Part shown: positions 897 through 30,126 of the stretch, one piece after another
Layout of the letters: every line of letters begins with the position of its first letter
How positions within the stretch are numbered: position 1 is the first letter of the stretch
Position numbers and translations under genes: made by a program
The notes under the pieces: model-generated
Databases searched by the model: none
Told to the model about the DNA's origin: nothing
Seen by the model: the letters and a program-made list of their open reading frames with translations, nothing else
From: Candidatus Scalindua sp.
GTDB lineage: Bacteria > Planctomycetota > Brocadiia > Brocadiales > Scalinduaceae
DNA: 32,000 bases
Direction of reading: 5' to 3'
NCBI GenBank assembly: GCA_031316235.1
Contig: JALDRA010000001.1
Coordinates: forward strand, 1,110,001 to 1,142,000

Positions 897-1061
897 CAGC
901 ATGGTTTGATTCGGCCTTTGCATGTTTTATTTGTCGCCCCAAAGCTGTCATTCCCGCAGTCTGTTGAGCGGGAATCCAGGATGAACGAGCTTCTGGATAT
1001 CCGATAAAAGCGTTCTGGTATGACAAAAGACGTCTACGCAAAAATTAACCTGACAAAGTTG
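897..1061. repeat. MITE-like element, family B (core hairpin gtcattcccgc...gcgggaatcc), copy 1
   Basis: 165 bp bracketed by a 9-bp direct repeat aaactgaat (888-896 and 1062-1070). The core ctgtcattcccgcagtctgttgagcgggaatccaggatgaacgag and the ...tatgacaaaag..ctacgcaaaaa tail recur at 1661-1808, 2249-2335 (inverted) and 24653-24820. Confidence 0.7.
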
Positions 1062-4120: not shown

Positions 4121-4122
4121 AT

Positions 4123-6165: not shown

Positions 6166-6192
6166 GGGTGCATTCCCAATTTATTGTAAAAT

Positions 6193-7611: not shown

Positions 7612-7634
7612 AAATACCCCCTTTCAAAAGACTT

Positions 7635-8300: not shown

Positions 8301-8375
8301 GGAAGAATTATCGTTGAAAACAACGAGGAAGTCAAGATCTTTTATTATATTTTACAAAAAATCGGGAATGCTCCC

Positions 8376-9026
8376 ATACTTGAAAGACTTCTTGAGATCC
8401 TCACTACGCAAACAGCAGGAGAAAGAATTAAGGAAGATAAGGAGAAAAAGTCTGTAAAATTGTCGTCACCAATGTTCCGTAAAGGTCGTATACTTGCAAT
8501 ACTTTTAATTACTTATAAGAAATTGGGTTTTAGTTTTTTTGTTACAAAAAAATATGATAAAAGCTTTTTTTATCTAAATAAATTTATTTCTTATGAGAAA
8601 AAAGACATTGATGCACTTGCAATACTAGCTGAATGTTCTTTCTATTTACGAAATGACATACAAAATTCCAAGATGTACACAGATGAAATAAAAAAAGCTG
8701 ATAAGTATAATGAAATATATCATTTTAATAGCGCTTTTTTTGGTATCTGGAATAAAAACTACCAGAGTGCATTATTCTTTTATAAAGAAACATTAAAACA
8801 GGGAAGGAATATTTCTCCATATATTGTTACGAAAGTAATTGCTTTTTTAGATGAAAGAAAAACAAATAATCCGCAAGAACTTGCTTATGATTTTGCTATT
8901 GGATTCCTTAATTATCATTTTAGTCAAAAAAAAATAGGTAACCGTGAATTAAAGGACTTTGTAAAAAAAGCTAAAAATAAAACTGAATATTATGAAATGG
9001 TAAGTTATGTTAAACAGAACATATAG
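8376..9026 (+). pseudogene. C-terminal 213 codons of the gene interrupted by IS copy 1
   Basis: After the IS, the TSD ata ctt gaa is followed in the same frame by RLLEILTTQ... The listed ORF 8265-9026 begins inside the IS, so its first ~37 codons are IS read-through. Confidence 0.75.
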
Positions 9027-11180: not shown

Positions 11181-11505
11181 AGAATCATTAAAGGAAGCAG
11201 AGGTGCTTCTAAGAGGGGGCATGAGTATGCGCGCTGTAATGAACAGGATGTATTATGCAATGTTCTATGCTTTATTGGCTCTGTTACAGCAGAAGCAAAT
11301 TGTAACTTCAAAACATTCAGGTGCAATTTCTCTGTTTGATAAAGAATTATCTAAAACATTACACCGCGCTTTCGAACTCACGCAAAAGGGTGATTATATT
11401 GAAGAGGCAGAAGTTACAAAAAAACTGATACGCTGTAATGGTAACCGTCTGGACCAAAATTGTGAAGCAGATTTCGAATGCTTCGCTTACGAGTCGAAGC
11501 AATGA
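11134..11505 (+). CDS. HEPN domain protein, probably 3'-decayed and fused to an unrelated repeat
   Basis: MKDIMALLQYRLKEAEESLKEAEVLLRGG..RAVMNRMYYAMFYALLALLQQKQIVTSKHSGAISLF is HEPN-like. From about 11427 the sequence switches to a repeat also found at 18595. Confidence 0.5.
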   Translation: MKDIMALLQYRLKEAEESLKEAEVLLRGGMSMRAVMNRMYYAMFYALLALLQQKQIVTSKHSGAISLFDKELSKTLHRAFELTQKGDYIEEAEVTKKLIRCNGNRLDQNCEADFECFAYESKQ

Positions 11506-11560
11506 AATTGATATTCGAACAAGCTCTTCAAGTGGACGCGGAAAGGCGTCGTTAAAGCAA

Positions 11561-11950
11561 ATGAAAATGGGTAAATCAAAAACAACAGTTATATTCGAAG
11601 AAAAAGGAGAAATTTGTCTGAAGTATATCCATGCACCGGAATATCTATCGTACTCAACGAAGATTATTAAAAAATCTACAGGAAAAAACCCGGTCACAAT
11701 TGAATTAAGTTTTACAGGCATTCCGCCTTGTGCAGCACCGATGCCTCCAGAAGAATATAAAATGTCTGCAGTAGATATTACATCACTTTTTGGTAAAGTA
11801 TACTCATCTCATAATGGTTTTCGGATAAAATCCGAGATAAAATTGAGCGAGTATAACTGCAACCAAGATTTGGTTTCCGGTAAAACCGAAAGCCAAATCG
11901 GTTTTAGTATATCAAAATGGGCAAATAAATACGGCTATAAACTTCATTAA
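11561..11950 (+). CDS. Hypothetical small protein carrying an in-frame MITE insertion
   Basis: MKMGKSKTTVIFEEKGE...SLFGKV [37 MITE-encoded codons] SKWANKYGYKLH*. The insertion is 109 bp plus a 2-bp TSD, 111 bp in total. A deletion derivative lies at 18729-18767. Confidence 0.3.
   Translation: MKMGKSKTTVIFEEKGEICLKYIHAPEYLSYSTKIIKKSTGKNPVTIELSFTGIPPCAAPMPPEEYKMSAVDITSLFGKVYSSHNGFRIKSEIKLSEYNCNQDLVSGKTESQIGFSISKWANKYGYKLH
11801..11909 (+). mobile_element. MITE family A (TA-duplicating), copy 1
   Basis: tactcatctcataatggttttcggataaaatccgagataaaattgagcgagtata...ccggtaaaaccgaaagccaaatcggttttagta flanked by ta/ta. The ends TACT...TGGTTTTCGG are inverted. Confidence 0.75.
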
Positions 11951-15520: not shown

Positions 15521-15644
15521 TATCCACCTCATGATGGTTTTCGGATAAAATTGAGCGAGTAAAGTCCTCGGCGCTTTTTGTCCGGGGATACCAGCAACCA
15601 GGATTTGCTTTCCGGTAAAACCGAAAACCAAATCGGTTTTAGTA
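15521..15644 (+). mobile_element. MITE family A, copy 2 (long variant)
   Basis: tatccacctcatgatggttttcggataaaattgagcgagtaaagtcctcggcg...ccggtaaaaccgaaaaccaaatcggttttagta flanked by ta/ta. It shares the extra segment aagtcctcggcg..gtccgggga with the copy at 24542. Confidence 0.7.
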
Positions 15645-15681
15645 TAGTAGGCGCTTTACCCTCTTATTGATAAGGAGAAAA

Positions 15682-17205: not shown

Positions 17206-17994
17206 ATGGTTAAATTTTATAAAAATCTAGGGATAAAGCTTAAAAAGATAAGAGAAAAATTAGACTTGTCGCAGGAAGCATTGGCAAAAAAGTTAGGAGT
17301 AAGCAGGGTTGCTATTTCACAAATTGAAACTGGTGACAGGAAGATTAGTGCGGAAGAAATAGTCAAGTTAGCTAAGGTTTTCAATATTCCTACGGATGTT
17401 TTGTTAGATATAAAAAAAGATGTTGAGATTATATTTGAGAAAACTGTGAAGAAATCAAAGAAGAAAAACGACATTAGAATTAGTGTTCCTCAGCGAAATT
17501 TGCAGAAATTTAAAGAGATATTGATTTATATCCTCGGGAAAGTTGGATCAAAACCTAACATAGGAGAGACAGTTTTATATAAACTTCTTTATTTCATAGA
17601 TTTTAATTTTTATGAGAAGTATGAAGAACAGCTGATAGGGGCAACATATATAAAAAACCATCATGGGCCGACGCCTAAAGAATTTGTAAAGATTGTAAAA
17701 GAATTGGAAGGTAAGGACTTGGTCAAAGTGCAGGATAAATATTTCCAATATCCACAGACAAAGTATTTGCCTTTAAGGAAACCTGATCTTACTCAATTTA
17801 AGGCGCATGAAAAAGAAGCGATAGATGATGTTTTGAATAGTCTATCAAACATGAATGCTTCCGAGATCAGCGAATACTCTCATAATGATGTACCATGGCA
17901 AACTACCGAGGATGGTGAAATTATTGAATATGAAGCAGTGTTTTATAGAACTCCGCCTTATTCAGTGAGAAATTATAGTGAAAAAGAAATTTAA
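17206..17994 (+). CDS. HTH(XRE)-Panacea (DUF4065/SocA-like) antitoxin, PanA type
   Basis: N-terminal XRE HTH (LSQEALAKKLGVSRVAISQIETGDRKISAEEIVKLAKVF). The C-terminal region ILIYILGKVGSKPNIGETVLYKLLYFIDFNFYEKYEEQLIGATYIKNHHGPTP is typical of DUF4065. Confidence 0.8.
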   Translation: MVKFYKNLGIKLKKIREKLDLSQEALAKKLGVSRVAISQIETGDRKISAEEIVKLAKVFNIPTDVLLDIKKDVEIIFEKTVKKSKKKNDIRISVPQRNLQKFKEILIYILGKVGSKPNIGETVLYKLLYFIDFNFYEKYEEQLIGATYIKNHHGPTPKEFVKIVKELEGKDLVKVQDKYFQYPQTKYLPLRKPDLTQFKAHEKEAIDDVLNSLSNMNASEISEYSHNDVPWQTTEDGEIIEYEAVFYRTPPYSVRNYSEKEI

Positions 17995-18391
17995 TGAAAT
18001 ACGAAAAATCGCTGAGTTTGAAAAAGATTTCAAAAGGCTTTCGAAAAGGTTTAAGACGCTTGATGACGATTTCAAAACTTTTATTGATAAACAGCTAATG
18101 ATTACTCATAAATTGGGAATTGATAATAAGGGTGTAATACCTATCTCAGGATTAGGGATCGAAGTTCCGAAGATATATAAGGCAAGAAAATTTGCCTGTA
18201 AAGCACTAAAAGGTAGCGGTGGAATGAGTGGCATAAGAATAATATATGCATATTATGAGGAAGATGATGTTATTGAATTTATAGAGATCTATTTTAAGGG
18301 TGATAAGAAAAACGAGGATAGGAACCGAATTATAAGATATTATACAACTGACATTCAGGAGTACAAAAGAAGGCAAATACGCCCGGATTGA
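17978..18391 (+). CDS. RelE/ParE-superfamily type II toxin
   Basis: FEKDFKRLSKRFKTL... and ...GSGGMSGIRIIYAYYEEDDVIEFIEIYFKGDKKNE fit the RelE/ParE fold signature. The GTG start overlaps the antitoxin end by 17 nt. Confidence 0.7.
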   Translation: MKKKFNEIRKIAEFEKDFKRLSKRFKTLDDDFKTFIDKQLMITHKLGIDNKGVIPISGLGIEVPKIYKARKFACKALKGSGGMSGIRIIYAYYEEDDVIEFIEIYFKGDKKNEDRNRIIRYYTTDIQEYKRRQIRPD

Positions 18392-18471: not shown

Positions 18472-18669
18472 ATGAAAACACCAGATGACAGACTCAAGTA
18501 TTTTGATGATGACGGGAATGAGGTAAACCCCGATCTTATTTCAAAATCTTCTCTCTGTGTCTCGTGTGTGAAGGTTGAAGATCCAAAAGAAGAGATGCGC
18601 TGTAATCTTAACTGCCTGGACCAGCAGAGTGAAGAAGATTTCGAATGCTTCGCTTACGAGTCGAAGTAA
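18472..18669 (+). CDS. Small Cys-rich protein (CxxC ... C...C), unknown function
   Basis: 65 aa, ...LCVSCVKVEDPKEEMRCNLNCLDQQSEEDFECFAYESK. Its last ~25 codons plus ~100 bp downstream are duplicated at 11427-11579. Confidence 0.5.
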   Translation: MKTPDDRLKYFDDDGNEVNPDLISKSSLCVSCVKVEDPKEEMRCNLNCLDQQSEEDFECFAYESK

Positions 18670-18796
18670 TGAAATTGATATTCGAACAAGCTCTTCAAGT
18701 GGGCGCGGAAAGGCGTCGTTAAAGTAAATGAAAATGGGTAAATCAATACGGCTACAAACTTCATTATTAATACTTTAAAAAAAAGATAAGATGAAT

Positions 18797-18890
18797 TGAA
18801 TTTCACCATTGACCAATCGGGAGATTCCATCCTTCATCAGCGCTTCACCGAAGTTCAACAGGTATCCTAATTTCATATTTGCCAATTTCA
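18797..18890 (-). pseudogene. GxxExxY gene C-terminal remnant
   Basis: The reverse strand reads MKLANMKLGYLLNFGEALMKDGISRLVNGE. Compare GDKNLGLIINFHVEVLREGIFRVVNK in 28895-29259. It abuts a family-D-like arm (cttcgtgtctctgtgcgag, about 18915-18940). Confidence 0.5.
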
Positions 18891-19006
18891 TTTTCCGTCA
18901 TCTTCTTTGTGGCTTCGTGTCTCTGTGCGAGCTTTACTGATCAAACTGGAAGGTGAATACTTTTAATTTGAATCAATATTGGCATTTTGTTCGCGTGTTT
19001 TAAGAA

Positions 19007-19029
19007 TCTGCCGGCTTCGCCTCGGCAGA
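19007..19029. terminator. Hairpin downstream of the NACHT gene (possible bidirectional terminator)
   Basis: tctgccg-gcttcgcct-cggcaga with T-rich sequence on both sides, about 70 nt after the stop at 19102. Confidence 0.35.
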
Positions 19030-19101
19030 TGTTTCTTGATACTTTCCTCACCTGAAAAAACCTACCCGCCGCCAAGGGTACAAGGGCCCAAGGGACAAGG
19101 G

Positions 19102-22071
19102 TTACACTGACCTGGAAAGGCGAAAGCCAACGAAGTTGCCGCGGGCGCCGGGCCCGAGGCCGCCCCGGAGCGCCGACCGGCAGCGCTGCGCATCGTCGCC
19201 CCAGCTGCCGCCGCGAATCACACGGAAGGAGCCTCTCGGTTTATCGGTCCATGCCTTTCCGTCATTGGGTGCCCCCTTGTAATCACCGTGCCAGTCGTCC
19301 TCCACCCATTCATACACGTTTCCATGCATATCATAAAGACCGAAGGCGTTCGGCTCTTTTTCTCCAACAGGATGAAGCAGTTCTCCCGAATTCTTATCAT
19401 ACCATCCCACTCGATCCAGGTCTTTTTCTGCGTCACCATTACAGTAACGAGTCTTACCCCCCGCACGGCAGGCATACTCCCATTCTGCCTCGCTCGGTAG
19501 CCGTAGCCCAGTCCATTCTGCATACCGTACGGCGTCATCCCAGCTCACCCCTACTACCGGCTGACGCGGCTGGTTGAATTGCCGGTCGGCCCAGTACTTC
19601 GGTTCCTTAACCTCTGGATTCTCCTTGAGAAACCGTCCATACTCCTCATTGGTCACGGGGTAACGCCCCAGATAAAAATCCTGAATCTGTACCTGATGGA
19701 CAGGTCCTTCTGCTTCAGATCTCCCCTTCTCCCGATCCGGAGATCCCATGGTAAATACTCCACCAGGTATTTTCACGAGCTCGTATCCACCGGGTTCGGA
19801 TACGATGACATCCTGACCGGCCTGCACTGCACGCTCCTCTATCCAGCCACGAATCTTTTGTGAAGGGTGTTTTTTGAGATGTGCTTCCCGATTATGAACT
19901 GCCTCAGGATCAAGCCGTTCCAGCACACGGAGAGCCACGAGCTGACGTTCCCATAACTCTTCGTCCTTTCCCGGCTCAGTTTCCAGAAGTTCTATGAATG
20001 GTTTCGTTGATGTCTCTGCCGCGTCATCCAGAGAGGCTTCAATCAATTCTGTATATTCTGCAAACGCGGGTTGTTTTACCACCTCGCGCAGGTAAGGAAC
20101 AAAGAGGGAGGGGTCTTCAAGGGCCAGTAAGATAAGTCCCACCTCCTGCCACCAGCTCTCGCCGAAGTGTGAGGCAAGCTCTCGTAATACACCCTCATCA
20201 TGAAATGCCCGCGTTCGTATCTCACGGGCGGCAAGATATTCCTGGAAACCGAGGTGCATAAAACCATACTCTTCAGGATTCCAACCTGTCAGGAGCCCGC
20301 TTTCGTCACGAACGGTATTGAGAAACTCTCTGGCAGTGCCACCTGACCATTGTACCGATCTGAGAACAGGTTCTATGATCGGAATGAGTTCAGAATACTC
20401 TGCCCGCGTACGTCCCTCCTTTCCATGCAGCCACAATGCAACCGGTTGAAGCACACGCATCCCGTCTCGGGCAGTTACACCAACAGAGAGTCCTTTTGCC
20501 TCACGCCAGTGTTCGAGGAGAACGTTTACACACTCTTCATAGAGGCACGCCCTCTTCTTCGGAAGGGCGCCCCGGTGGCGATGGACGAGACAGATATTTG
20601 CAAGGAGGAGCGGGTTGCGGGTAAGCTCAAACACCCTTCTTGCCCTGAAATCGGGCTCCTTCAGACGGTTGATAAGACTCTCGGCTTTTTCTGCAGCAAT
20701 CACCGTTGCCTGATCAGTATCTCTGGCAAGGCCCCTTTCTACAATCGTGTACCAGTTCCGGATAAATCGTGCTACCTGGTCTTCCGTAAGCGGCCGGATG
20801 TGCATCTCAAGAAACTCCTCGCCTAACTGAACAGTCGGGCTGTATCCCGCGAAACGGCATGTCACGACAAAACGACACGCACTATGAACGCGAATGGCTT
20901 CTGTTATCCAGCCTGCGACCTTCTCACGTCCGGCAAGGTCGGCAACTTCGTCGAGTCCGTCCAGGAGGAAGAGCAGATTTTGTCTCTCCAGGAGACGTCT
21001 GCCAAAGCCTTTGGAGGTATTAAGGTGGGCGCCCTGGAGCTGTTCCTCGATGAAGGCGTCAAGCCCCTGATCAAGACTCTTTAACTGACGCAGGGGTAAA
21101 AACACCGGGATCATATCATGGGGAAGGCCTATCGTCTCCTGATCTTTTCTCAGACACCAGAGGAGCAGCCTCTTTAAGTGGGTGGTCTTTCCTGACCCCG
21201 GATCTCCAAGGATAACAATGCCCCGCTGCCTGCGATTTCCGGATTGACGGAATGCCTCCAGAAGTGAGATCTCCAGTCCGGCATCCTGACCTCTCAGTCT
21301 TTTTTCGGCATGCTCCGCGTCCCGGAAAAAATCCTCCCTGACGCCCTGGAGGTTGACCATGGCTCGCAGGGGCACATACATCTCTTCAAGGTCAATGGGC
21401 ACCTTGATCTGCATGGCAAAACCTGCAACCGGCAGGTTTTCGTGCAGGGCCTCCGCCTTCCGGCAATAGGAGAGGATCTCCTTATCCGTTTGCAGTTCTG
21501 GTGGAGAAACTTCCTCTCCGGCCTGGAGGTGTCTCTCTTTTCCGGAAACTTCTTCTCTCTTCGCCCGCCATTTGTTCAGTGAGTCCAACACCTTTGCGCC
21601 AAGGGTGGTTTCGTTAAAGACTGCAGGTATTTGATCCCGCGATATTTTTTGCTTGAAGGCTTCCAGTTTTTCCTGTTTTTTCCACTTATCTGACCCTTCA
21701 TCATAATCTTTCTGCTGATTCACCGGAAGTTCAGGGTCAATGAGGAACATCAGCCGCTCTTTTACAGCATCATATTCCATCTCGGTAATGGATTTCATAC
21801 CATCCGGTTCCCATCCGTATCGATGAGCAATGATGCCTACGAGGACGTCCGCTTCCCTTGCGTGGCGCAGGCATTCTTCCACAACAGGTCTGGTTGAGGC
21901 CTCAAAGAATTCCATCCCATGCCATACCATTCCCGCCATCGTAATGGAGTCTTCAACCGTTCTCCGCCTCTCTTTATTATCGAGAAAAGTACTTGAAACG
22001 AATACCTTGTAACTCTTACCTGAACTTTTCGATACGGATTTTTTCTTGCCGGCCATTTCGCCTTCTCCCAC
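19102..22071 (-). CDS. STAND NTPase: DUF4062 (TIR-like) - NACHT - helical region - FGE/SUMF1 domain
   Basis: N-terminus KVFVSSTFLDNKERRRTVEDSI...ADVLVGIIAHRYGWEP (DUF4062). Walker A GDPGSGKTT and Walker B LLFLLDGLDEV (NACHT). The C-terminal ~260 aa contain YPVTNEEY, VGVSWDDAVRYAEW, EAEWEYACRAG, HGNVYEWVED and RGGSW...GFRLSRS (FGE-sulfatase fold). Confidence 0.88.
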   Translation of the reverse strand: MGEGEMAGKKKSVSKSSGKSYKVFVSSTFLDNKERRRTVEDSITMAGMVWHGMEFFEASTRPVVEECLRHAREADVLVGIIAHRYGWEPDGMKSITEMEYDAVKERLMFLIDPELPVNQQKDYDEGSDKWKKQEKLEAFKQKISRDQIPAVFNETTLGAKVLDSLNKWRAKREEVSGKERHLQAGEEVSPPELQTDKEILSYCRKAEALHENLPVAGFAMQIKVPIDLEEMYVPLRAMVNLQGVREDFFRDAEHAEKRLRGQDAGLEISLLEAFRQSGNRRQRGIVILGDPGSGKTTHLKRLLLWCLRKDQETIGLPHDMIPVFLPLRQLKSLDQGLDAFIEEQLQGAHLNTSKGFGRRLLERQNLLFLLDGLDEVADLAGREKVAGWITEAIRVHSACRFVVTCRFAGYSPTVQLGEEFLEMHIRPLTEDQVARFIRNWYTIVERGLARDTDQATVIAAEKAESLINRLKEPDFRARRVFELTRNPLLLANICLVHRHRGALPKKRACLYEECVNVLLEHWREAKGLSVGVTARDGMRVLQPVALWLHGKEGRTRAEYSELIPIIEPVLRSVQWSGGTAREFLNTVRDESGLLTGWNPEEYGFMHLGFQEYLAAREIRTRAFHDEGVLRELASHFGESWWQEVGLILLALEDPSLFVPYLREVVKQPAFAEYTELIEASLDDAAETSTKPFIELLETEPGKDEELWERQLVALRVLERLDPEAVHNREAHLKKHPSQKIRGWIEERAVQAGQDVIVSEPGGYELVKIPGGVFTMGSPDREKGRSEAEGPVHQVQIQDFYLGRYPVTNEEYGRFLKENPEVKEPKYWADRQFNQPRQPVVGVSWDDAVRYAEWTGLRLPSEAEWEYACRAGGKTRYCNGDAEKDLDRVGWYDKNSGELLHPVGEKEPNAFGLYDMHGNVYEWVEDDWHGDYKGAPNDGKAWTDKPRGSFRVIRGGSWGDDAQRCRSALRGGLGPGARGNFVGFRLSRSV

Positions 22072-22380
22072 CCCAGTCAGGTTTCATCGTAGAATATCGG
22101 AATTCGGATTGTGGATTTTTACATTTTGCAAGAGAACAGACTACAAAAAAAAACAGTCTCTCTCTTTGATAAATATTAGAGCAAAAACCATAAAATTTGC
22201 AAGCCATTTCAATAATGGAGACTGAGTAGACAGTTCCTCACATCCCTCGACTCCCGCAGGGCATTATAGACATCAACTTTCCGTTCATCCAGATCATTAC
22301 GGTTTCACAAACCAATACTGACTCTTGAAATCCGATCTTGCTTTTAAAGAGTACAAAAACACTCTGTAATTAATCAGCGG

Positions 22381-22500
22381 TTACAACACACCCCGTCTGC
22401 TTACGCAGCCACCCCTCTTTATAGAGGGGATGATACGGCATATGTCCTGGAACTTACAAGTCCCCTCTAATAAGAGGGGATTCAGGGGTGTGTTACTGGA
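22381..22500. repeat. Compound palindromic element (outer IR aacacacccc/ggggtgtgtt, two inner cccctct...agagggg hairpins)
   Basis: acccctctttatagagggga and tcccctctaataagagggga hairpins are nested in an outer inverted repeat. The ORF 22381-22599 over it is rejected. Confidence 0.55.
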
Positions 22501-22540: not shown

Positions 22541-22776
22541 GGTGTCAGCGTTTGAACGGAAACCCTCTGTTTGAACGAAAACTGCCCAGGTATACTCATT
22601 TCATAATGGTTTTCGGATAAAATCCGAGAAAAAACGGAGCGAGTATACCTTCACCAAGATTTGGTTTTAGCATACAAGGCGCGTAATAATTACGTAACCG
22701 GAGCGTACTCAAGTACGTGAGGATTACGTCATTATTGCAGCAACGCCGTAGATGGGTAGTTTTCGTTCAAACACTA
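22541..22776. repeat. Family E palindromic element, copy 2 (inverted), interrupted by a MITE A
   Basis: The reverse complement aligns with 28194-28313 and 1833-1989. It is continuous except for 22593-22672. Its end supplies the last codons and stop of umuC. Confidence 0.65.
22593..22672 (+). mobile_element. MITE family A, copy 3 (80-bp short variant) nested in element E
   Basis: tactcatttcataatggttttcggataaaatccgag...caccaagatttggttttagca flanked by ta/ta. The uninterrupted site is visible in E copy 3 (cccagatacaagg, reverse complement of 28286-28298). Confidence 0.7.
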
Positions 22777-24059
22777 ATTATGAGGAGATCTTCCCACTTA
22801 CTCGTATATGCCGGTGAAAGCATCGATCTCCTCATCTTCCATCTCTGCCGTATCCCCTCCGCCGCCAGTCTCAGGCTCCCCCTCCCCCATCTTCTGTTTA
22901 TCCTGTCCACTGTCTCCATGAGTTTTTCCTCCCGTTCTCTCCCCGCATAATCAAGGGAGCTGAAGAGGTGTAACTGTATCAGGCTATCCGTCTGGATCCC
23001 TTCCAGGAGAATACCGGCTTTTTTGTACCGATATCCCGGTTTATATATCTTACCCAGCCCCTGCAGCGCATGCCTTGTCAGATCGATGGTATTTGCCGTA
23101 GGCTCCTTCAGCCTGATATGGAGAGAATTTGCATATTGTGGCTCATCTCTTTTAAACTTATTCGTTTTAATATAGACAATCAGTATATTGGCGCAGGAGT
23201 TCTGGCTCCTGAGCTTTTCAGCCGCCCTGCTTACGTATGAGGCTACCGCCTCCTCCAGCTCCTCCCGCGTAGCAACAGGCTTTCCAAAAGAACGGGAACT
23301 GCGGATCCCTTTTTTGGGCATGGGGTATCGATCCAATCCAAAACAGGGGATTCCCCTCAACTCAAGGACGCATCGTTCGCCCATTACGGTCATTCTCTTG
23401 CGTACCCATTCCATATCCGCATACTTTAGATCCCTTGCCGTCTTAATCCCCTGTCCCCGCAGCAGCTTCGCATACTGATGACCAACACCCCACACATCCT
23501 CAACCCCGAGCTGCTCAAGGTAAAAGTCGATTTCCCTCCCCGGGCCCTTACTCAGATCCACAACTCCTCCGTATCGGGGATGTTTCTTCGCTATCTCATT
23601 GGCAACTTTTGTCAGGGTCTTCGTCTGTGCAATACCAACCGACACCGATATCCCCGTCCACTTCATTACCGTCTGCCGAATTCCCCTTCCGCATGCAGCA
23701 TAATCTTCACACCGTAGTCCCGTAAGAGAAAGAAAGGCCTCATCGATAGAGTAGATCTCGATATCGGGCGTAAACTGTTTCAACGTCTCCATCACCCTGC
23801 GTGACATGTCGGCATAAAGCGAATAGTTTGAAGAGAACACCCTGATCTTGTGCCTCTTAATCATGTTGTCACACTGAAAAACAGGGATCCCCATCCTGAT
23901 ACCAAGGGCCTTCACCTCGTTTGACCGTGCAACAACGCAACCATCGTTGTTAGAGAGTACCATTACGGGAATGGCTGCAAGCGCCGGATCAAACACCCTC
24001 TCACAGGAAACGTAAAAATTGTTACAATCCACCAGCGCCAAAACCGTGTCCTGTCTCAT
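22767..24059 (-). CDS. umuC: Y-family translesion DNA polymerase, UmuC type
   Basis: N-terminal [21 protein letters not shown]...[21 protein letters not shown] is the UmuC signature. It overlaps the umuD stop by 4 nt. Confidence 0.9.
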
Positions 24060-24478
24060 CTTATTTCCTTAATAGCATGCGTCACTACTCCCCATACCTG
24101 AAAATCCATCTCTTCGGTAACCCTGATCGGTTCATACTCTCTATTCTCGGGGACCAGATATAATTCACCTTTTTTGTACCGAACCCGCTTTATGGTAAAT
24201 TCTCCGCTTAAGAACGCGACAACAATTGATTTATCACCCGGATCAAGCGCGCGATCAACCACAACCAGATCACCATCTGAAATTCCGCAATCCTGCATTG
24301 AATTCCCCTTCACCCTGACAAAGAACGTTGCTGCCGGGTGTTTCACGATATACTCGTTCAGATCCAGATGCTTATCAACAAAGTCTTCTGCCGGGCTCGG
24401 AAAACCGGCGGAAACAGGAAACTCATATAGAGGAAGTTTAATATTTTTGTCTATTTTCGCCTTATAAAAGTCAATCAT
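24056..24478 (-). CDS. umuD: UmuD-like S24 peptidase (polymerase V accessory subunit)
   Basis: 140 aa. Ser/Lys dyad context [20 protein letters not shown] ... FTIKRV. It is translationally coupled to umuC. Confidence 0.88.
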
Positions 24479-24533: not shown

Positions 24534-24541
24534 TCAAGTTA

Positions 24542-24849
24542 TACTCAGCTCATAATAGTTTTCGGATAAAACCCGAGATAAAATTGAGCGAGTAAAGTCC
24601 TCGGCGTCTGGTCCGGGGATACCTTCACCAGGATTTAGTTTTCAATAAAACCCAGTAATGTCCGGTTAGGTTTTTGCATATTTAATTTATTTCCCCAAAA
24701 CTGTCATTCCCGCATGTTTTTAGCGGGAATCTATGATGAAACGAGTCTCTTGATACCCGATAAAGTCGCTCGGGTATGACAAAAGCCGCCTACGCAAAAA
24801 CCTAACCGGACACTGTTGAGTAAAACCGAAAACCAAATCGGTTTTAGTA
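24542..24849 (+). mobile_element. MITE family A, copy 4, carrying a nested family B MITE
   Basis: The left end tactcagctcataatagttttcgg... and right end ...gtaaaaccgaaaaccaaatcggttttagta are flanked by ta/ta. The interior is interrupted at 24653-24820. Confidence 0.7.
24653..24820. mobile_element. MITE family B, copy nested inside MITE A
   Basis: 168 bp. Near-perfect ~20-bp TIR tgtccggttaggtttttgc / gcaaaaacctaaccggaca. The 7-bp TSD taaaacc lies at 24646-24652 and 24821-24827. Confidence 0.75.
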
Positions 24850-25370: not shown

Positions 25371-25397
25371 GGGTGCATTCCCAATTTATTGTAAAAT

Positions 25398-26816
25398 TTA
25401 TTTAACAATTCGAAGACTTCTCTTAAATTTTTTATTTTTAATTCTTTCCTGGTCGTCCCTTTTGTATTTTTCGATAACTTTATCGTAAGTACCGTTATAT
25501 TTCGCGCATCTGATCTTGAGTATGTTATTAGCGTTTTGGATATACCACCAAGCTCCTGATCGTTTAAGCCTTGTATGGCTAATGAATTTATTGGCGCTTT
25601 CAATAGCACCGCTGCCAATGTGATATCCTCCACGCTTGGCGGAACTGTAATCCATCTTTTCACAATGATTTGTGAGATAGGTATAAAACTTGTCAATTTT
25701 ATCTTGAATATCTTGAGTTCGGGCTTTCATCTTTCCAAGACCGCCAAGCACCTCTTCATGGTAACCATAATATATTCTTGTCAGAGTCGCCTCACACCAC
25801 TGTAGAGACTCTCTTGTCTCTTTTCCGTAATGGGCATTGGCTACACCATGGACATACTCCGAGCAATGGTAATAGTCGAGAATCTCTTTTGCCGAGGGAA
25901 ATATTTCTTTACATCGGTTCCAGATCCAGGGAGCACCGTCTCCTATAATTCCCAGGCGTATCTTCTCGTGGGGAATAAGCCCGGCTTCTTTGATCTTAAC
26001 CAAGTATTCTGCTAATTCGTGATCTGCACAAACCTGGTGCCAGCTAATTAAATGAATAATAGTTTGACCATCGATGAGATACAGTCTAAAACCTTTAATC
26101 TCTTTGTATTCTCCCTTGCCTCTTTTCCCTTTACGGGGGTGAGGACTTGGCTCGGGACGCATCGGCCCGTGGGCTCCATCCAGGGCAAGCATCATAATGG
26201 GACGACGAAACTTATCCACTGAGAGGTTTTCTATCTGCTTATCAATCTCTTCCCTGGGCGGGCAGACATCCAAAATTCCCACTTCTTGACCAATGGCATT
26301 CGTGGTCTCATGCATATGATGTTCACTCAGCTTTACTCCGGTTATTCTCTCGTAGGTTTCGCTGGCCGTCTCATAGGCCGTTTCGCTTGACAACCAGGCT
26401 TCCACATCTTGCACATCATATTGCTTCGATGATTCAGACAATCCAAGGGCTTCGTCTAAAGGATAGTATCCTAAACGACACGCTCTGCAATAAAAATAAG
26501 GCCTGGTTAATTCAAATTGTCCGGCAAGGGTTTGGATAGTCTTGGATTGTTTTCCTTGTCTTTGCATACCCTTGCCGCATTCGGGGCAATCGCAGCTTTG
26601 CTGATTCAATAAATGTCCAAATTTCCTCTCTATGAACCCAAGAATCAGTTGTCCTAATATCTCCGCTCTCTCTTCGAAAACAGCTTTTGAGATTTCTCCT
26701 AAATCTTCCATTGAGTACTCTTCCTCAATCTTATCCAATCGGGTGTCTAAAAAACCATAAAATAAAGCTCTCCAGTTATCGGATGACTCTATCTTTCTTT
26801 TCACCACACAAGTCAA
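25398..26816 (-). CDS. DDE transposase, identical to 6193-7611
   Basis: The 472-aa translation is identical. Confidence 0.85.
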   Translation of the reverse strand: MTCVVKRKIESSDNWRALFYGFLDTRLDKIEEEYSMEDLGEISKAVFEERAEILGQLILGFIERKFGHLLNQQSCDCPECGKGMQRQGKQSKTIQTLAGQFELTRPYFYCRACRLGYYPLDEALGLSESSKQYDVQDVEAWLSSETAYETASETYERITGVKLSEHHMHETTNAIGQEVGILDVCPPREEIDKQIENLSVDKFRRPIMMLALDGAHGPMRPEPSPHPRKGKRGKGEYKEIKGFRLYLIDGQTIIHLISWHQVCADHELAEYLVKIKEAGLIPHEKIRLGIIGDGAPWIWNRCKEIFPSAKEILDYYHCSEYVHGVANAHYGKETRESLQWCEATLTRIYYGYHEEVLGGLGKMKARTQDIQDKIDKFYTYLTNHCEKMDYSSAKRGGYHIGSGAIESANKFISHTRLKRSGAWWYIQNANNILKIRCAKYNGTYDKVIEKYKRDDQERIKNKKFKRSLRIVK

Positions 26817-26839
26817 AAATACCCCCTTTCAAAAGACTT

Positions 26840-27505
26840 CTATCGCTCCCTGAATACATCTATGGCGAATAGTAACGCCTGACGTTCTAATACAGGCATG
26901 GATTTAAGTTTCGCTGTCCACCTTTTGGTCTTCCTCTTTATCCGTTCCCGCTCACGAAAGTTATTGCCAAGATAACGATAGTCGTGCAGTCCTACCGGAA
27001 CACTATAGTTCATCCATAACCACTCCGTTGCTACGCCATGATGACAGACGGCCTGAAAAGAATGTGTCTGCCAGCTACGCAATGATTCTTTGTATAAGGT
27101 TGACTCGTAACCGGATATCATCACCATGCAGGGAAGAGTTTTCAAAACTTCCAAAAGTTCGATGTGCTGCGCACGGCTATAGTCATATTTATATAGCCGT
27201 CCATACTTTTTCCTTGTCTCGCGAAGATATGGTGGGTCACAATATACCAGTTCTTTTCCTGTGAAATGATAATTATTCAGATAATTAATTGCGTCATCAT
27301 GGACCAGTTCAAAACCTATTGGATGCATATTTGTCCACATCTCAACAACTTCCGAGTCAATTTCTATCCCAAAATTACTCCTGGCAGGTCGTTTGTTCCG
27401 TATAACAGCGCCACCACCCAAATGAGTCTCTATGTAGACATCATGGGGTGGCATAAGATTGATTAACTTTTGGAATACACCTCCTTTGCCGCCTGGATAA
27501 TTCAT
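26840..27505 (-). CDS. Dam-like N6-adenine DNA methyltransferase, identical to 7635-8300
   Basis: The 221-aa translation is identical. Confidence 0.78.
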   Translation of the reverse strand: MNYPGGKGGVFQKLINLMPPHDVYIETHLGGGAVIRNKRPARSNFGIEIDSEVVEMWTNMHPIGFELVHDDAINYLNNYHFTGKELVYCDPPYLRETRKKYGRLYKYDYSRAQHIELLEVLKTLPCMVMISGYESTLYKESLRSWQTHSFQAVCHHGVATEWLWMNYSVPVGLHDYRYLGNNFRERERIKRKTKRWTAKLKSMPVLERQALLFAIDVFRER

Positions 27506-27580
27506 GGAAGAATTATCGTTGAAAACAACGAGGAAGTCAAGATCTTTTATTATATTTTACAAAAAATCGGGAATGCTCCC

Positions 27581-28187
27581 CATCCATATCATCATCAGGG
27601 TAGGGCCTTAACATCGCCATGAGCGCGTCACTATTCAGCTCAGGAGAACCCACCCCCAGCCATGCATCTTCACACTCCTGCCGCAGGATTACGGGCATCC
27701 TGTCATGAATGGGCCGCAGGGTCATATTGGATTCGGTTGTAATGATGGTGAATGTCTTGAGTTCACTCCCTTCACCATCTCTCCAGATATCATAGAGCCC
27801 TGCGAAGGAGAAGATCTCCCTATTTTTCAGTTTGATATAGTGAGGGAGTTTACTTTTCGCAACCCTCTTCCACTCATAGAAACCTGAACTCGGTACTAAA
27901 CATCTCTTCGACTTAAGGATATGTCTGAATGAGGGTTTTGTGTCCAGTGTCTCTGCCCGTGCATTAATCATCCGGTTTCCTATCTTGGGATCCTTTGCCC
28001 AGAAAGGCACCAGCCCCCACCTCATCATCTCCAGCACACGTCCTTTTTCCCTGTTAAGATATATTACAGGCGTATGTTGTGATGGTGCAATATTATAGCG
28101 CGGTCCGATCGTGAGATCCTCAGAAATGAGCACCCTGTATTGAGAAAAAACAGCATCGATGTCTGTAAGCGCAAATCTTCCACACAT
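27581..28187 (-). pseudogene. SOS response-associated peptidase (SRAP/YedK family), 3'-truncated by IS copy 2
   Basis: MCGRFALTD... The catalytic Cys must be residue 2, so the ATG at 28187 is the real start rather than the TTG at 28193. The ORF reads into the IS after ...PYPDDDMD. The reconstructed gene is 229 aa. Confidence 0.85.
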
Positions 28188-28193
28188 GGTCAA

Positions 28194-28894: not shown

Positions 28895-29259
28895 TTACTG
28901 TAATTTATTGACTACCCGGAAAATCCCTTCTCGTAATACCTCAACATGAAAATTGATTATTAAACCTAAATTTTTATCACCAAGTCGTAAATATGTCAAC
29001 AGTTTCGGTTTGTCTATCGTTGATAATTCCTCTTTAGCTTTCAAATCTACTATTACCTTATCTTCTACTAATAAGTCTAAGCGAAGATCTGTGCCGAGTT
29101 TGATTCCTTTATAAGGAATTGGTACACTCTGTTGTCTTTTAAATTGCACTCCTCTCAGGTGTAACTCATGGCAAAGCGCATCTTCATAGACAGATTCCAA
29201 AAGTCCCGGTCCTAAAATACGATGTACTTCTATTGCGGAGCCTATTATCTTCTCTGATA
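28895..29259 (-). CDS. GxxExxY protein (PD-(D/E)XK-like family); native start separated by a MITE
   Basis: ...EKIIGSAIEVHRILGPGLLESVYEDALCHEL... contains the GxxExxY signature. The native start MHENE (ATG at 29385) is cut off by the 110-bp insertion, which shifts the frame. The listed ORF start at 29299 is a TTG inside the MITE. Confidence 0.7.
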
Positions 29260-29367
29260 TACTAAAACCGATTTGGTTTTCGGTTTTACCGGAAACCAAA
29301 TCTTGGTGAAGGTATACTCGCTCAATTTTATCTCGGATTTTATCCGAAAACCATTATGAGATGAGTA
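29260..29367 (-). mobile_element. MITE family A, copy 5 (inverted), inserted in the 5' end of the GxxExxY gene
   Basis: tactaaaaccgatttggttttcgg...ccattatgagatgagta flanked by ta (29258-29259) and ta (29368-29369). The empty allele of the same site is at 25166-25178. Confidence 0.8.
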
Positions 29368-29532
29368 TATCTCGTTTTCATGCATAACGAACAACGTCTT
29401 TCCTATTTCACATCAGTCTTTACAACCCTCTCTGCGACCTCTGCGCCTCTGCGTTAAAAGAAAAGACTAAAATTCTTAATTTACAGAGGTTCAAAGAGGT
29501 TAAGGACCTTTCGGACAGGCAGACCGGCCTAT

Positions 29533-30126
29533 TCAATACTTTCTAAAAAGCCCGACGACAACACCCAGAATAGTGACCTCACCGGATTTGACCCTGAGCG
29601 GCTCCATCAGGGGATTTGAAGATCTGAACTCAACTCCCTCCTCCCTCTTATAAAACCTTTTCAAGGTCGCCTCATTATCTATCAAGGCAGCAACCATCTC
29701 ACCGTTATCAGCCACCGCCCGCTTATTGATAATGACAATGTCTCCGTCAAAGATGCCGTCCCCTATCATGGATTCTCCCTTCACCTTCAGGCAGAAGTTT
29801 TCGCCCCTCCTCAGAAGTTCCTGAGGCACTGAAATAGTTTCATCATTCTCAACAGCCTCAATCGGTTGACCGGCAGCAATGGTACCCAACAGTTTAATAT
29901 TGACAGTCGGAGTCCCCTCCTCAACAATGGTAATGGCCCGGGCCCTATTTGGCTGAACGGTGATTGCCCCTTTCTCTTCCAGCTGCTTAATATGCTTAAA
30001 TACGGCATTAAACGAACTGAATCCGAATCGTTTCCGTATCTCGTCATAGGTCGGCGCCACCTTGTTCTTTTTTATGTATCTTTCTATATAGATAAAAATA
30101 TCTTTTTGTCGTGGTGTTAAATGCAT
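29533..30126 (-). CDS. lexA: LexA repressor
   Basis: N-terminal wHTH LTPRQKDIFIYIERYIKKNKVAPTYDEIRKRFGFSS, cleavage site AAG (GTIAAGQPIEA), and S24 Ser/Lys context VKGESMIGDGIFDGDIVII ... ATLKRF. Confidence 0.92.
   Translation of the reverse strand: MHLTPRQKDIFIYIERYIKKNKVAPTYDEIRKRFGFSSFNAVFKHIKQLEEKGAITVQPNRARAITIVEEGTPTVNIKLLGTIAAGQPIEAVENDETISVPQELLRRGENFCLKVKGESMIGDGIFDGDIVIINKRAVADNGEMVAALIDNEATLKRFYKREEGVEFRSSNPLMEPLRVKSGEVTILGVVVGLFRKY

What the first reader, a model, noticed from the sequence alone, without database searches (positions are those of the whole stretch)
19102..22071. Stand-alone DUF4062(TIR-like)-NACHT-FGE/SUMF1 protein in a GC-rich patch: NLR-like candidate with an unusual sensor domain
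One 989-aa ORF combines four parts:
- An N-terminal DUF4062 module (KVFVSSTF...IIAHRYGWEP).
- A NACHT NTPase (GDPGSGKTT; LLFLLDGLDEV).
- A ~350-aa helical region.
- A complete C-terminal formylglycine-generating-enzyme fold (...HGNVYEWVED...RGGSW...GFRLSRS).

This is the effector-switch-sensor layout of antiphage STAND/NLR proteins (Avs, bNACHT), but with an FGE-type ligand-binding domain in place of TPR/WD40/LRR repeats. As far as I recall, FGE domains fused to STAND NTPases have been noted in comparative-genomic surveys of bacterial conflict systems. I know of no experimental characterisation.

Sampled 60-nt rows of the gene are visibly much GC-richer than the AT-rich flanks. The flanks hold a TA pair, repeat debris and a GxxExxY remnant. 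This pattern suggests horizontal acquisition.
Basis: partly seen in the sequence, partly recalled or inferred. Interest (0 to 1): 0.7.

Follow-up and report, generated by a model that had tools for sequence, protein, structure and literature searches.

The report
NLR-like NADase with DGR-written lectin sensor
This anammox-bacterium gene encodes an NLR-like immune-type receptor (NAD-degrading head, NACHT switch, lectin-fold sensor) whose sensor tip carries the marks of a diversity-generating retroelement that is absent from this locus; it belongs to a class already described by comparative genomics and is not a new kind of system.

Summary
ORF 19102-22071(-) encodes DUF4062 + NACHT + FGE-sulfatase, all above Pfam cut-offs, in a GC-rich patch (0.53 against about 0.38). 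The true start is probably the ATG at 22056 (984 aa). The source is a Candidatus Scalindua MAG.

The interpretation needs revising in three ways.
- The FGE domain is not an enzyme and not an unusual sensor. It lacks the catalytic Cys pair and is the TvpA-type C-type-lectin fold targeted by diversity-generating retroelements (DGRs).
- Close relatives (59-76% identity) sit in cassettes of target, HRDC, bAvd, RT/TR, second target. The window gene's last ~120 nt align with their TRs and VRs. They differ mainly at TR adenines (20/28 against 11/86 elsewhere). 12 of 15 hypervariable codons end in C (P~1e-5). The post-VR GC-rich segment and GCGAAGC hairpin are retained. No RT, Avd, HRDC or TR is in the window, and no close RT relative is on the 4.15-Mb contig.
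- DUF4062 was shown in 2026 to be a TIR-like NADase, and its E-Y motif is invariant here.

Most likely this is a single-gene abortive-infection receptor orphaned from its DGR. NACHT-FGE ("FGS") DGR targets were described in 2020-2024. None has been tested experimentally. I rate it a new member of a known kind.

The parts
19102..22056 (-). Coding sequence of the DUF4062-NACHT-FGE protein (984 aa from the ATG; the mechanical ORF extends to a GTG at 22071)
   Evidence: ORF list. Identical 984-aa NCBI protein P0001. Shine-Dalgarno-like GGGAGAAGG upstream of the ATG.
21541..22008 (-). N-terminal TIR-like (DUF4062) effector module, residues 17-172 in 984-aa numbering. The Pfam DUF4062 core is 21769-22008.
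   Evidence: Pfam E = 5.9e-19. AF2 model pLDDT 86.5. Best PDB matches are TIR domains and nucleoside 2'-deoxyribosyltransferases.
21772..21777 (-). Codons for E94-Y95 (E99-Y100 in 989-aa numbering) within SITEMEY: the probable catalytic Glu of the NADase
   Evidence: E94 and Y95 are invariant in 66 family members. They correspond to the E-Y motif (Eva01 E87-Y88) and the catalytic Glu (KpSwz E97) in the 2026 preprints.
20749..21219 (-). NACHT NTPase domain. Walker A GDPGSGKTT is at 21181-21207. Walker B is LLFLLDGLDE. The sensor-1 Arg lies in VVTCRF.
   Evidence: Pfam NACHT E = 2.4e-17. G284, P286, G287, G289, K290, T291, T292, D366, G367, L368, D369, E370 and R401 are invariant in the family.
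19783..20748 (-). Helical / winged-helix region following the NACHT (NLRC4-like), including the invariant H601 in GFMHLGFQEYLAA
   Evidence: Model secondary structure. Foldseek hit to NLRC4 4kxf, E = 5.5e-13 over 552 columns. Invariant residues.
19117..19782 (-). FGE-sulfatase-type C-type-lectin fold, non-catalytic: the sensor domain
   Evidence: Pfam E = 2.2e-61. Closest solved structures are PvdO, TvpA and FGEs. The catalytic Cys pair is not conserved.
19112..19233 (-). Variable region (VR) homologous to the TRs and VRs of relatives' DGRs (residues about 942-982)
   Evidence: Alignments A2 and A3. Mismatch counts at TR-A against non-A positions. Entropy profile. NNC codon bias and A depletion.
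19065..19101 (-). GC-rich post-VR segment (CCCTTGTCCCTTGGGCCCTTGTACCCTTGGCGGCGGG), conserved after the VRs of DGR-linked relatives but not after their TRs. It is IMH-like. A terminator-like stem at 19063-19080 lies mostly within it.
   Evidence: Alignment A3. Coordinates. Terminator-like site.
19006..19030 (-). Hairpin ATCTGCCG-AG-GCGAAGC-CGGCAGAT, homologous to the hairpin downstream of the VRs in DGR-bearing loci
   Evidence: Alignment A3. DNA fold with the same topology as L006 and L007, z = -3.1. Distribution across loci.

Best explanation
The gene encodes a cytoplasmic, single-chain NLR-like receptor of the 'DGR-diversified STAND antigen-receptor' class.

Domain layout:
- The C-terminal FGE-type C-type-lectin domain is a non-catalytic binding module.
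- Its last ~40 residues form a variable region. In this lineage the VR was written by mutagenic retrohoming from a DGR: adenine-specific substitutions copied from a template repeat.
- The centre is a NACHT NTPase with an NLRC4-like helical region.
- The N-terminus is a DUF4062 TIR-like NADase.

Proposed mechanism (inferred):
1. The lectin tip binds a foreign ligand, most likely a phage protein.
2. Binding releases autoinhibition.
3. The NACHT module exchanges nucleotide and oligomerises.
4. The DUF4062 domains are brought together and hydrolyse NAD+.
5. The infected cell arrests or dies (abortive infection).

In this genome the DGR machinery (HRDC, bAvd, RT, TR and a second target) is not at the locus. 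The receptor therefore most likely now works with a fixed specificity, as a copy orphaned from its DGR that arrived by horizontal transfer.

Shown here:
- The architecture.
- Intact NTPase and NADase motifs.
- Loss of the FGE catalytic Cys pair.
- VR/TR homology and the DGR mutational signature.
- Retained cis elements.
- Absence of a DGR within 32 kb.

Inferred, not shown: NADase activity, the ligand, the activation path, the defence role, and orphan status genome-wide.
For: Architecture:
- All three domains exceed Pfam cut-offs.
- The full-length model has pLDDT 84.8. The centre matches NLRC4 (E = 5.5e-13) and the C-terminus matches PvdO, FGE and TvpA.
- The N-terminal model (pLDDT 86.5) matches TIR domains and NDTs.

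Motifs invariant in 66 relatives: Walker A, Walker B, sensor-1 R401, H601, and the DUF4062 residues F19, S21, S22, T23 and E94-Y95.

DUF4062 function in the literature:
- Shown to be an NADase in KpSwz, requiring E97 (bioRxiv 10.64898/2026.05.01.722283).
- Predicted to be one in Evangelion, with E87-Y88 (bioRxiv 10.64898/2026.06.25.731849).

DGR link:
- Relatives P0074 (59%), P0002 (76%) and L085 (73%), plus S. japonica P0103 (a Metallophos-type target, 64%), lie in cassettes of target, HRDC, bAvd, RT, second target.
- In the three cassettes examined (L006, L007, L008), TR/VR pairs differ at 9-16 TR adenines and only 1-2 other positions.
- The window's 3' end aligns with them. Against the S. 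japonica TR, 20/28 A positions differ and 11/86 other positions differ.
- TR AAC codons correspond to NNC codons in the window. 12 of 15 hypervariable codons end in C (P = 1.4e-5), and A content is 6.5% against 26%.
- Family entropy exceeds 3 bits at exactly these positions, between invariant scaffold residues.
- The IMH-like segment and the GCGAAGC hairpin are retained.

No DGR here:
- No RT, Avd or HRDC by Pfam or tblastn.
- No TR-like copy of the VR.
- None of the 120 best RT relatives (at least 51% identity) lies on the 4,149,782-bp contig.
- The VR is identical in an independent assembly.
- DGR-less copies are common: about 65 of 79 loci.

Effector modularity: the same chassis carries Metallophos, TIR_2+Metallophos, EAD7 and other N-termini.

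Horizontal transfer: family members are 4-10 GC points richer than their flanks in five anammox genomes, but match their flanks in GC-rich hosts.
Against: - There is no experimental evidence for any STAND with an FGE sensor.
- PADLOC and NCBIfam give only weak, partial NACHT hits far below cut-offs.
- The immediate context is not a classical defence island.
- The cognate TR was never seen. The A-position test uses heterologous TRs, so part of the enrichment could reflect selection on binding-site codons.
- The intact hairpin and IMH, and the lack of synonymous decay, would also fit a target still diversified in trans.
- The genome outside the window could not be searched: it is absent from genome contigs and metagenome contigs.
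- The identical VR in L092 may come from the same dataset as the MAG.
Confidence: 0.62

Rival explanations
1. Same protein and mechanism, but the VR is still actively diversified. The gene would be a remote target of a DGR (TR plus RT) encoded elsewhere in the Scalindua genome or on a mobile element, giving an adaptive-like repertoire.
For: - All cis requirements are present: the IMH-like segment and a perfect 8-bp GCGAAGC hairpin at the canonical distance.
- There is no synonymous decay of the NNC codons.
- Trans-acting DGRs and remote targets are reported in Thiohalocapsa (PMC10907252).
- Among RT-less loci the hairpin is uncommon (4/16), so retaining it here is notable.
Against: - No RT relative of at least 51% identity lies on the 4.15-Mb contig.
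- There is no TR in the 32-kb window.
- The VR is identical in an independent short-read assembly seen in two samples.
- No other family paralogue from this contig appears among the best 120 homologues.
Confidence: 0.2
2. The protein is not antiviral. It would be a programmed-cell-death, kin-recognition or signalling receptor of aggregate-forming bacteria, sensing an endogenous or environmental ligand through the lectin domain.
For: - The family is concentrated in aggregate-forming, filamentous or social lineages: Desulfobacterales, anammox Planctomycetota, Myxococcota.
- Kaur et al. and Dore et al. link these systems to multicellularity.
- The neighbours are SOS/mutagenesis genes and not defence genes.
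- There are no matches to validated defence models.
Against: - DUF4062 proteins tested so far act in phage defence.
- Hypervariable binding sites and swappable effectors are hallmarks of an arms race.
- NACHT proteins with such layouts protect against phage (Kibby et al.).
Confidence: 0.1
3. One reading: a stand-alone innate NLR whose FGE domain is a conserved small-molecule- or peptide-binding (possibly catalytic) sensor with no connection to retroelements.
For: - The gene stands alone in this window.
- The FGE fold is complete and confidently modelled.
Against: - The catalytic Cys pair is absent, and the corresponding loop is the most variable part of the family.
- There is nucleotide-level homology to TRs and VRs, with the adenine-specific pattern and NNC codons.
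- The closest relatives sit in DGR cassettes.
Confidence: 0.05

Closest known systems
DGR 'clade 5D' STAND-CLec target proteins (Thiohalocapsa PB-PSB1 DGR3/DGR6 and relatives; Dore et al. 2024, PMC10907252)
   Same: - A central NACHT/STAND NTPase with a C-terminal FGE-type CLec domain that carries the VR.
- In relatives of the window gene, two targets flank the Avd-RT cassette.
- Incomplete loci and remote targets occur.
- MITEs or transposons erode the loci.
   Different: - The window copy has no DGR components within 32 kb.
- Its N-terminus is DUF4062. That paper reported N-termini that were mostly unannotated, TIR or peptidase.
- The host is an anammox planctomycete.
- The cassette in relatives carries an HRDC gene, which that paper's text does not mention.
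Bacterial NACHT (bNACHT) proteins, 'FGS antigen-receptor type' (Kibby et al.; Kaur et al. 2020/2021)
   Same: A tripartite layout of N-terminal effector, NACHT and C-terminal FGS sensor, predicted to be DGR-diversified.
   Different: - The tested bNACHTs have short C-terminal extensions or repeats. No FGS-type protein was tested.
- The window protein matches no PADLOC bNACHT model.
Swarozyc / Evangelion DUF4062 NADase defence proteins and human TEP1/NWD1 (2026 preprints)
   Same: - A DUF4062 TIR-like domain with the conserved E-Y catalytic motif.
- In TEP1 and NWD1, DUF4062 is likewise fused directly to a NACHT.
   Different: - Swarozyc and Evangelion use a small auxiliary (AUX) domain as the sensor, and Swarozyc is activated by the phage portal. 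They have no NTPase.
- TEP1 and NWD1 have WD40 sensors.
- The sensor here is a DGR-type lectin domain.
TvpA, Treponema denticola DGR variable protein (PDB 2y3c)
   Same: An FGE-type C-type-lectin fold with the VR in the same C-terminal segment (RGGSW...C...R...P...R...GFRL). It is the second-best sequence match among solved structures, at 1.4e-27.
   Different: TvpA is a stand-alone lipoprotein-type binding protein (my knowledge). It has no NTPase or effector.
Avs (antiviral STAND) pattern-recognition receptors (literature, plus my own knowledge)
   Same: An effector-STAND-sensor design with ligand-triggered oligomerisation that activates an N-terminal effector.
   Different: - Avs NTPases belong to other STAND clades.
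- Their sensors are TPR-like repeats with germline-fixed specificity for conserved phage proteins.
Formylglycine-generating enzyme (SUMF1) and PvdO
   Same: The same fold: TMt 0.65-0.80 and 27-39% identity.
   Different: - It lacks the CxxxxC copper-binding catalytic pair.
- All NCBIfam equivalog scores are far below their cut-offs: PvdO 155 against 500, EgtB 103 against 360.

Membership tests
STAND / NACHT NTPase | P-loop Walker A (GxxxxGK[ST]) and Walker B hhhhDGLDE | tested here: met
   GDPGSGKTT and LLFLLDGLDE are present and invariant in 66 relatives. Pfam NACHT scores 63.7 bits against a cut-off of 26.7.
STAND / NACHT NTPase | NLR-type helical and winged-helix domains after the NTPase, with a conserved His | tested here: met
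   Foldseek matches NLRC4 4kxf and 8fw2 over about 550 columns. H601 in GFMHLGFQEYL is invariant. That this His is the nucleotide-contacting residue is an inference.
Validated antiphage NACHT/Avs systems (PADLOC, NCBIfam models) | Full-length match to a curated defence-protein model | tested here: not met
   Only partial NACHT-region hits: PDC-S60 at 26.9 bits, EruA at 35 bits against a cut-off of 1000, DS8 at 14.5 bits against 790.
Validated antiphage NACHT/Avs systems (PADLOC, NCBIfam models) | Protection against phage | not testable with these tools
   Requires heterologous expression and phage challenge.
DUF4062 / TIR-like NADase (Swarozyc, Evangelion, TEP1) | DUF4062 profile match and a TIR-like alpha/beta fold | tested here: met
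   Pfam 68.5 bits against a cut-off of 24.7. The model's top PDB matches are TIR domains and NDTs.
DUF4062 / TIR-like NADase (Swarozyc, Evangelion, TEP1) | Catalytic Glu (E-Y motif) and the N-terminal aromatic motif | tested here: met
   VFVSSTF and SITEMEY are present. F19, E94 and Y95 are invariant. The motifs are as described. I could not make a residue-level alignment to KpSwz because no sequence was available.
DUF4062 / TIR-like NADase (Swarozyc, Evangelion, TEP1) | NAD+ hydrolase activity | not testable with these tools
   Biochemical assay needed.
Formylglycine-generating enzyme (catalytic FGE/SUMF1) | Two catalytic, Cu(I)-binding cysteines (human C336/C341) in the C-terminal loop | tested here: not met
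   - The region has only one Cys.
- In the alignment to human FGE, C336 aligns with Asp.
- In the alignment to T. curvata FGE, neither Cys is matched.
- The loop residues are hypervariable in the family.
Formylglycine-generating enzyme (catalytic FGE/SUMF1) | FGE-sulfatase fold | tested here: met
   Pfam E = 2.2e-61. TMt 0.65-0.80 to PvdO and FGE.
DGR variable (target) protein | C-terminal VR in a CLec fold, homologous to a template repeat and differing at TR adenines | tested here: inconclusive
   Met against the heterologous TRs of relatives, and supported by NNC codon bias. However, no cognate TR was found in the window, and the rest of the genome was unavailable.
DGR variable (target) protein | IMH-type GC-rich element and a hairpin downstream of the VR | tested here: met
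   Alignment A3, fold, distribution across loci.
DGR variable (target) protein | Cognate RT and Avd at the locus | tested here: not met
   No RT, Avd or HRDC in the window. No close RT relative on the same contig.

The most novel reading that the evidence does not exclude
The gene is a live remote target. A DGR elsewhere in the Scalindua genome, or one brought in by a mobile element, would rewrite this VR in trans. An anammox bacterium would then run an adaptive-like, somatically diversifying NLR whose output is NAD+ depletion.

A related reading is that orphaning is functional: a selected specificity becomes 'germline-fixed' once the mutator is lost.
Probability: 0.2. Interest if true: 0.65.

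Novelty: new member of a known kind. Interest (0 to 1): 0.4.

Why it matters
NLR-like receptors with DGR-hypervariable lectin sensors are the closest bacterial analogue proposed so far to diversifying antigen receptors, and none has been tested experimentally. This locus adds three things.
- It places the class in anammox Planctomycetota.
- It links the class to an effector domain (DUF4062) whose NADase chemistry was defined only in 2026. That gives a simple biochemical read-out for a single 984-aa protein.
- It documents a copy that has lost its DGR yet keeps every homing signal. This bears on how such receptors spread and become fixed.

For experiments, the intact cassettes found in relatives (L008, L085, L007) are better starting points than this orphan. 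The value of this particular locus is therefore moderate.

Tried and rejected
- FGE as an enzyme: rejected. There is no Cys pair, and the loop is hypervariable.
- DGR in cis: searched by Pfam on all larger ORFs, by tblastn with three RT/Avd/HRDC sets, and by an 80-mer ungapped scan for a TR. Nothing was found.
- Cognate TR elsewhere in the genome:
  - A degenerate 'VR-or-A' IUPAC pattern was validated on the window.
  - It then gave 0 hits in genome contigs, not even the VR itself, so the genome is not in that collection.
  - A looser VR/TR pattern gave 0 hits in metagenome contigs.
- RT on the same contig: I used the 'longest_contig' field of RT homologues. None equals 4,149,782 bp. This covers only relatives of at least 51% identity.
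- PADLOC and NCBIfam classification: no usable system-level hit.
- tRNA and Rfam scans for integration sites or ncRNAs: nothing found.
- Conserved synteny among homologues: none found.
- Literature on DGRs in anammox bacteria: none of the 15 listed papers contains the DGR term.
- The third DUF4062 preprint (10.64898/2026.09.04.749371) is not held.


Full report
**Observation**

The ORF is real and lies at the stated coordinates, 19102..22071 on the minus strand (989 aa from a GTG). NCBI annotates the identical protein as 984 aa (P0001, 'SUMF1/EgtB/PvdO family nonheme iron enzyme [Candidatus Scalindua sp.]'), on a 4,149,782-bp contig. The ATG at 22056 follows a purine-rich GGGAGAAGG, so I use 984-aa numbering below.

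Pfam supports all three domains well above the curated cut-offs:
- DUF4062: E = 5.9e-19
- NACHT: E = 2.4e-17
- FGE-sulfatase: E = 2.2e-61

The gene's GC is 0.53 and its GC3 is 0.54. The housekeeping neighbours YaeQ, Tag and SerB have 0.38-0.42, and the window as a whole has 0.41. The patch ends abruptly near 19000.

**Anatomy**

A full-length AlphaFold2 model built on 66 relatives is confident (pLDDT 84.8, pTM 0.69).
- Its C-terminal domain superposes on PvdO, true FGEs and the DGR variable protein TvpA (TMt 0.65-0.80).
- About 550 central residues superpose on NLRC4 (E = 5.5e-13).

A separate model of residues 1-172 (pLDDT 86.5) best matches TIR domains (RPS4, TIR-STING, SARM1, SPARTA, AbTir) and nucleoside 2'-deoxyribosyltransferases.

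The following are invariant in the family:
- Walker A (G284...K290 T291 T292)
- Walker B (D366 G367 L368 D369 E370)
- R401 and H601
- The DUF4062 motifs F19/S21/S22/T23 and E94-Y95

**The FGE domain is a DGR-type variable lectin domain, not an enzyme**

By sequence, the closest solved proteins are PvdO (1e-41) and TvpA (1.4e-27), ahead of the catalytic FGEs. In those alignments the catalytic CxxxxC pair of FGE is not conserved, and the corresponding segment (GGSW-GDDAQR-C-RSALR...) holds only one Cys. NCBIfam equivalogs (PvdO, EgtB, GldK and others) all score far below their cut-offs.

Across 66 relatives, entropy in this segment exceeds 3 bits at residues 953-955, 958, 963, 965-968, 971 and 973-975, and is about 2.8 bits at 957 and 970. 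These positions alternate with invariant scaffold residues: R945, R948, G949, G950, R964, and the nearly invariant R960, P969, R972 and GFR977-979. The residues used there are mostly N, D, Y, S, G, F, I and V.

**Relatives are DGR targets**

Neighbourhoods of homologues show no conserved synteny. Several close relatives, however, sit in the same cassette:
- L007 (P0074, 59% identical, same architecture): target, HRDC, bAvd, RT, then Metallophos-NACHT-FGE.
- L006 (Scalindua japonica): NNH5-NACHT-FGE, HRDC, bAvd, RT, then a second NACHT-FGE target, P0103. The source names it a Ser/Thr-phosphatase-family protein, and Pfam hits only its NACHT and FGE domains.
- L008 (P0002, at 76% one of the closest relatives): target, HRDC, bAvd, RT, then AAA_35-FGE.
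- L085 (Brocadiaceae, 73%): the same arrangement.

L006, L007 and L008 each have a VR1/TR/VR2 repeat family. Cognate VRs differ from their TR at 9-16 TR adenines and at only 1-2 other positions. This is the definition of DGR mutagenic homing.

Of 79 family loci from named genomes, about 14 have an RT within 10 kb. A few others have only HRDC or Avd remnants (L018, L088, L040, L079). The rest have no DGR component within reach, although some of those contigs are short.

**The window copy carries the DGR signature but has no DGR**

The last ~120 nt of the gene (19112-19233) align base-for-base with these TRs and VRs.
- Against the S. japonica TR, 20 of 28 TR-adenine positions differ, but only 11 of 86 other positions do. 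By arithmetic on those counts the odds ratio is about 17.
- This uses a heterologous TR, so selection on binding-site codons could contribute to the enrichment.
- An independent test is codon structure. TR AAC codons correspond to NNC codons in the window. 12 of the 15 hypervariable codons end in C, whereas synonymous usage in the rest of the gene predicts 8-44% per codon (P = 1.4e-5). The VR contains 6.5% A, against 26% elsewhere in the gene.

Downstream of the stop codon the window keeps two elements:
- The GC-rich segment that follows VRs but not TRs in relatives (19065-19101).
- A hairpin, ATCTGCCG-AG-GCGAAGC-CGGCAGAT (19006-19030). It has the same topology as those after the VRs of L006, L007 and L008, with different but still complementary stem bases.

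That hairpin follows 6 of 9 VRs in RT-bearing loci and 4 of 16 in RT-less loci. The window is one of those four.

The DGR machinery itself is missing:
- There is no RT, Avd or HRDC by Pfam or tblastn.
- No TR-like copy of the VR exists in the 32 kb.
- None of the 120 best relatives of the S. japonica RT (at least 51% identity) lies on the 4.15-Mb contig.

An independent short-read contig (L092, SRR28338161) is 100% identical over window 18673-22415, VR included. I could not search the rest of the genome, because it is in neither the genome collection nor the metagenome collection.

**The effector**

Two 2026 preprints that I read address DUF4062. One shows that it is a TIR-like NADase (NAD+ to ADP-ribose + nicotinamide) that executes abortive infection.
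- KpSwz requires E97 and is activated by a phage portal protein.
- In Evangelion, an E87-Y88 motif and an N-terminal aromatic motif are conserved, and the NADase role is predicted.
- Human TEP1, NWD1 and NWD2 carry DUF4062 directly before a NACHT.

A third preprint, which renames the domain NIR, is not held; I know it only from its abstract. The window protein has both motifs, and they are invariant in the family.

The same NACHT-FGE chassis carries other N-terminal modules in other genomes:
- Metallophos, the most frequent alternative
- TIR_2+Metallophos
- EAD7
- An FAD/NAD-binding module
- Unannotated modules

The swap point coincides with the high-entropy linker at residues 161-200. This is effector modularity typical of conflict systems.

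**Mechanism (inferred)**

1. The lectin-tip VR binds a foreign ligand.
2. Autoinhibition is released.
3. The NACHT module oligomerises.
4. The DUF4062 domains are juxtaposed and hydrolyse NAD+.
5. The cell arrests or dies.

The current specificity is most likely fixed, because the mutator is gone. A trans-acting DGR elsewhere in the genome remains possible (about 0.2), given the intact cis elements and the precedent in Thiohalocapsa.

**Horizontal origin**

In five anammox genomes, family members are 4-10 GC points richer than their flanks. In GC-rich hosts they match their flanks. The family is most abundant in Desulfobacterales. This fits acquisition from GC-richer donors with incomplete amelioration, but it is not proof.

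The local context is mixed. A TA-like HTH-Panacea pair lies on one side and UmuDC on the other. There are interspersed MITE-like repeats and a recently active IS. SoFic and the type I R-M genes are 13-19 kb away.

**Comparison and novelty**

NACHT proteins with 'FGS' sensors predicted to be DGR-diversified were described by:
- Kaur et al. 2020 (PMC7159879, read) and 2021 (PMC8195603, listed and cited by Kibby et al., but not read here)
- Kibby et al.
- Dore et al. 2024, whose clade 5D has two STAND-CLec targets per DGR, remote or incomplete loci and MITE erosion

The 2026 Nature STAND survey models FGE-sulfatase sensors but does not mention DGRs. In the passages I searched I saw no test of an FGE-sensor STAND.

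So this is a new member of a known kind. New details here are:
- The DUF4062 NADase head on such a target
- The anammox host
- The HRDC gene in the cassette of relatives
- An orphan copy that keeps all its homing signals

Specialists would not be surprised. The class as a whole remains experimentally open.

Noticed in passing
window 6166-8375 and 25371-27580: Two perfectly identical 2,210-bp copies of an IS. Each encodes a UPF0236-family transposase (472 aa) and a D12-class adenine-methyltransferase-like passenger (221 aa). Each has its own 9-bp target-site duplication (ATACTTGAA and CATCCATAT) and terminal inverted repeats, so the element has been recently active. The first copy sits between two low-GC ORFs with no family match (5413-6189 and 8265-9026). 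These may be halves of one disrupted gene.
   Followed up: partly
window 22767-24478, 27537-28193, 28895-29299, 29533-30126 (all minus strand): An SOS-type cluster lies next to the gene: UmuC and UmuD (translesion polymerase V), an SRAP/YedK abasic-site peptidase, a PD-(D/E)XK_3 nuclease and LexA. The second IS copy interrupts the cluster.
   Followed up: partly
window 925-1007, 1691-1773, 24681-24763; 11798-11914, 15578-15646, 22588-22776, 24537-24617, 29255-29372: At least two families of 50-100-nt interspersed, hairpin-forming intergenic repeats (MITE/REP-like) are scattered through the window, including the region between the gene and umuC. They probably cause the breaks in short-read assemblies: L092 ends at one of them.
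   Followed up: partly
window 17206-18391: An HTH_3 + SocA/Panacea-domain protein (262 aa) overlaps by 17 nt a 137-aa ORF with no Pfam or PADLOC match. This is a candidate PanA-type antitoxin with a novel toxin.
   Followed up: partly
window 25-747 and 2486-5313: A SoFic-like Fic protein (PADLOC 4e-71) and type I R-M HsdM + HsdS are present, with no recognisable HsdR in the window. The IS lies immediately downstream.
   Followed up: partly
L006 6205-6699, L007 12086-12583, L008 4017-4514, L016, L047, L067, L085: The DGR cassettes that target this family carry a conserved HRDC-domain gene immediately upstream of bAvd. L018 (Ca. Anammoxibacter) and L088 keep only the HRDC gene next to the target, which suggests decaying cassettes.
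   Followed up: partly
L050, L051, L054, L055, L063, L064, L076 (Desulfobacterales MAG CAXXIG01): One Desulfobacterales genome carries at least seven NACHT-FGE paralogues with different N-terminal modules (Metallophos, EAD7, unknown). Only some are near an RT, which points to a large receptor repertoire.
   Followed up: no
L001 9001-15353 and L004 6365-11946: In two genomes without a nearby DGR, a DUF4062-NACHT-FGE gene sits in tandem with a second NACHT-FGE paralogue that has a different N-terminus. This is reminiscent of the two-target DGR layout with the cassette removed, or of paired NLRs.
   Followed up: no
window 18572-18746 and 11405-11579: A 175-nt segment downstream of the gene is 89% identical to a segment 7 kb away. 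It overlaps a small Cys-rich ORF (18472-18669). It is a duplicated gene fragment of unknown nature.
   Followed up: no
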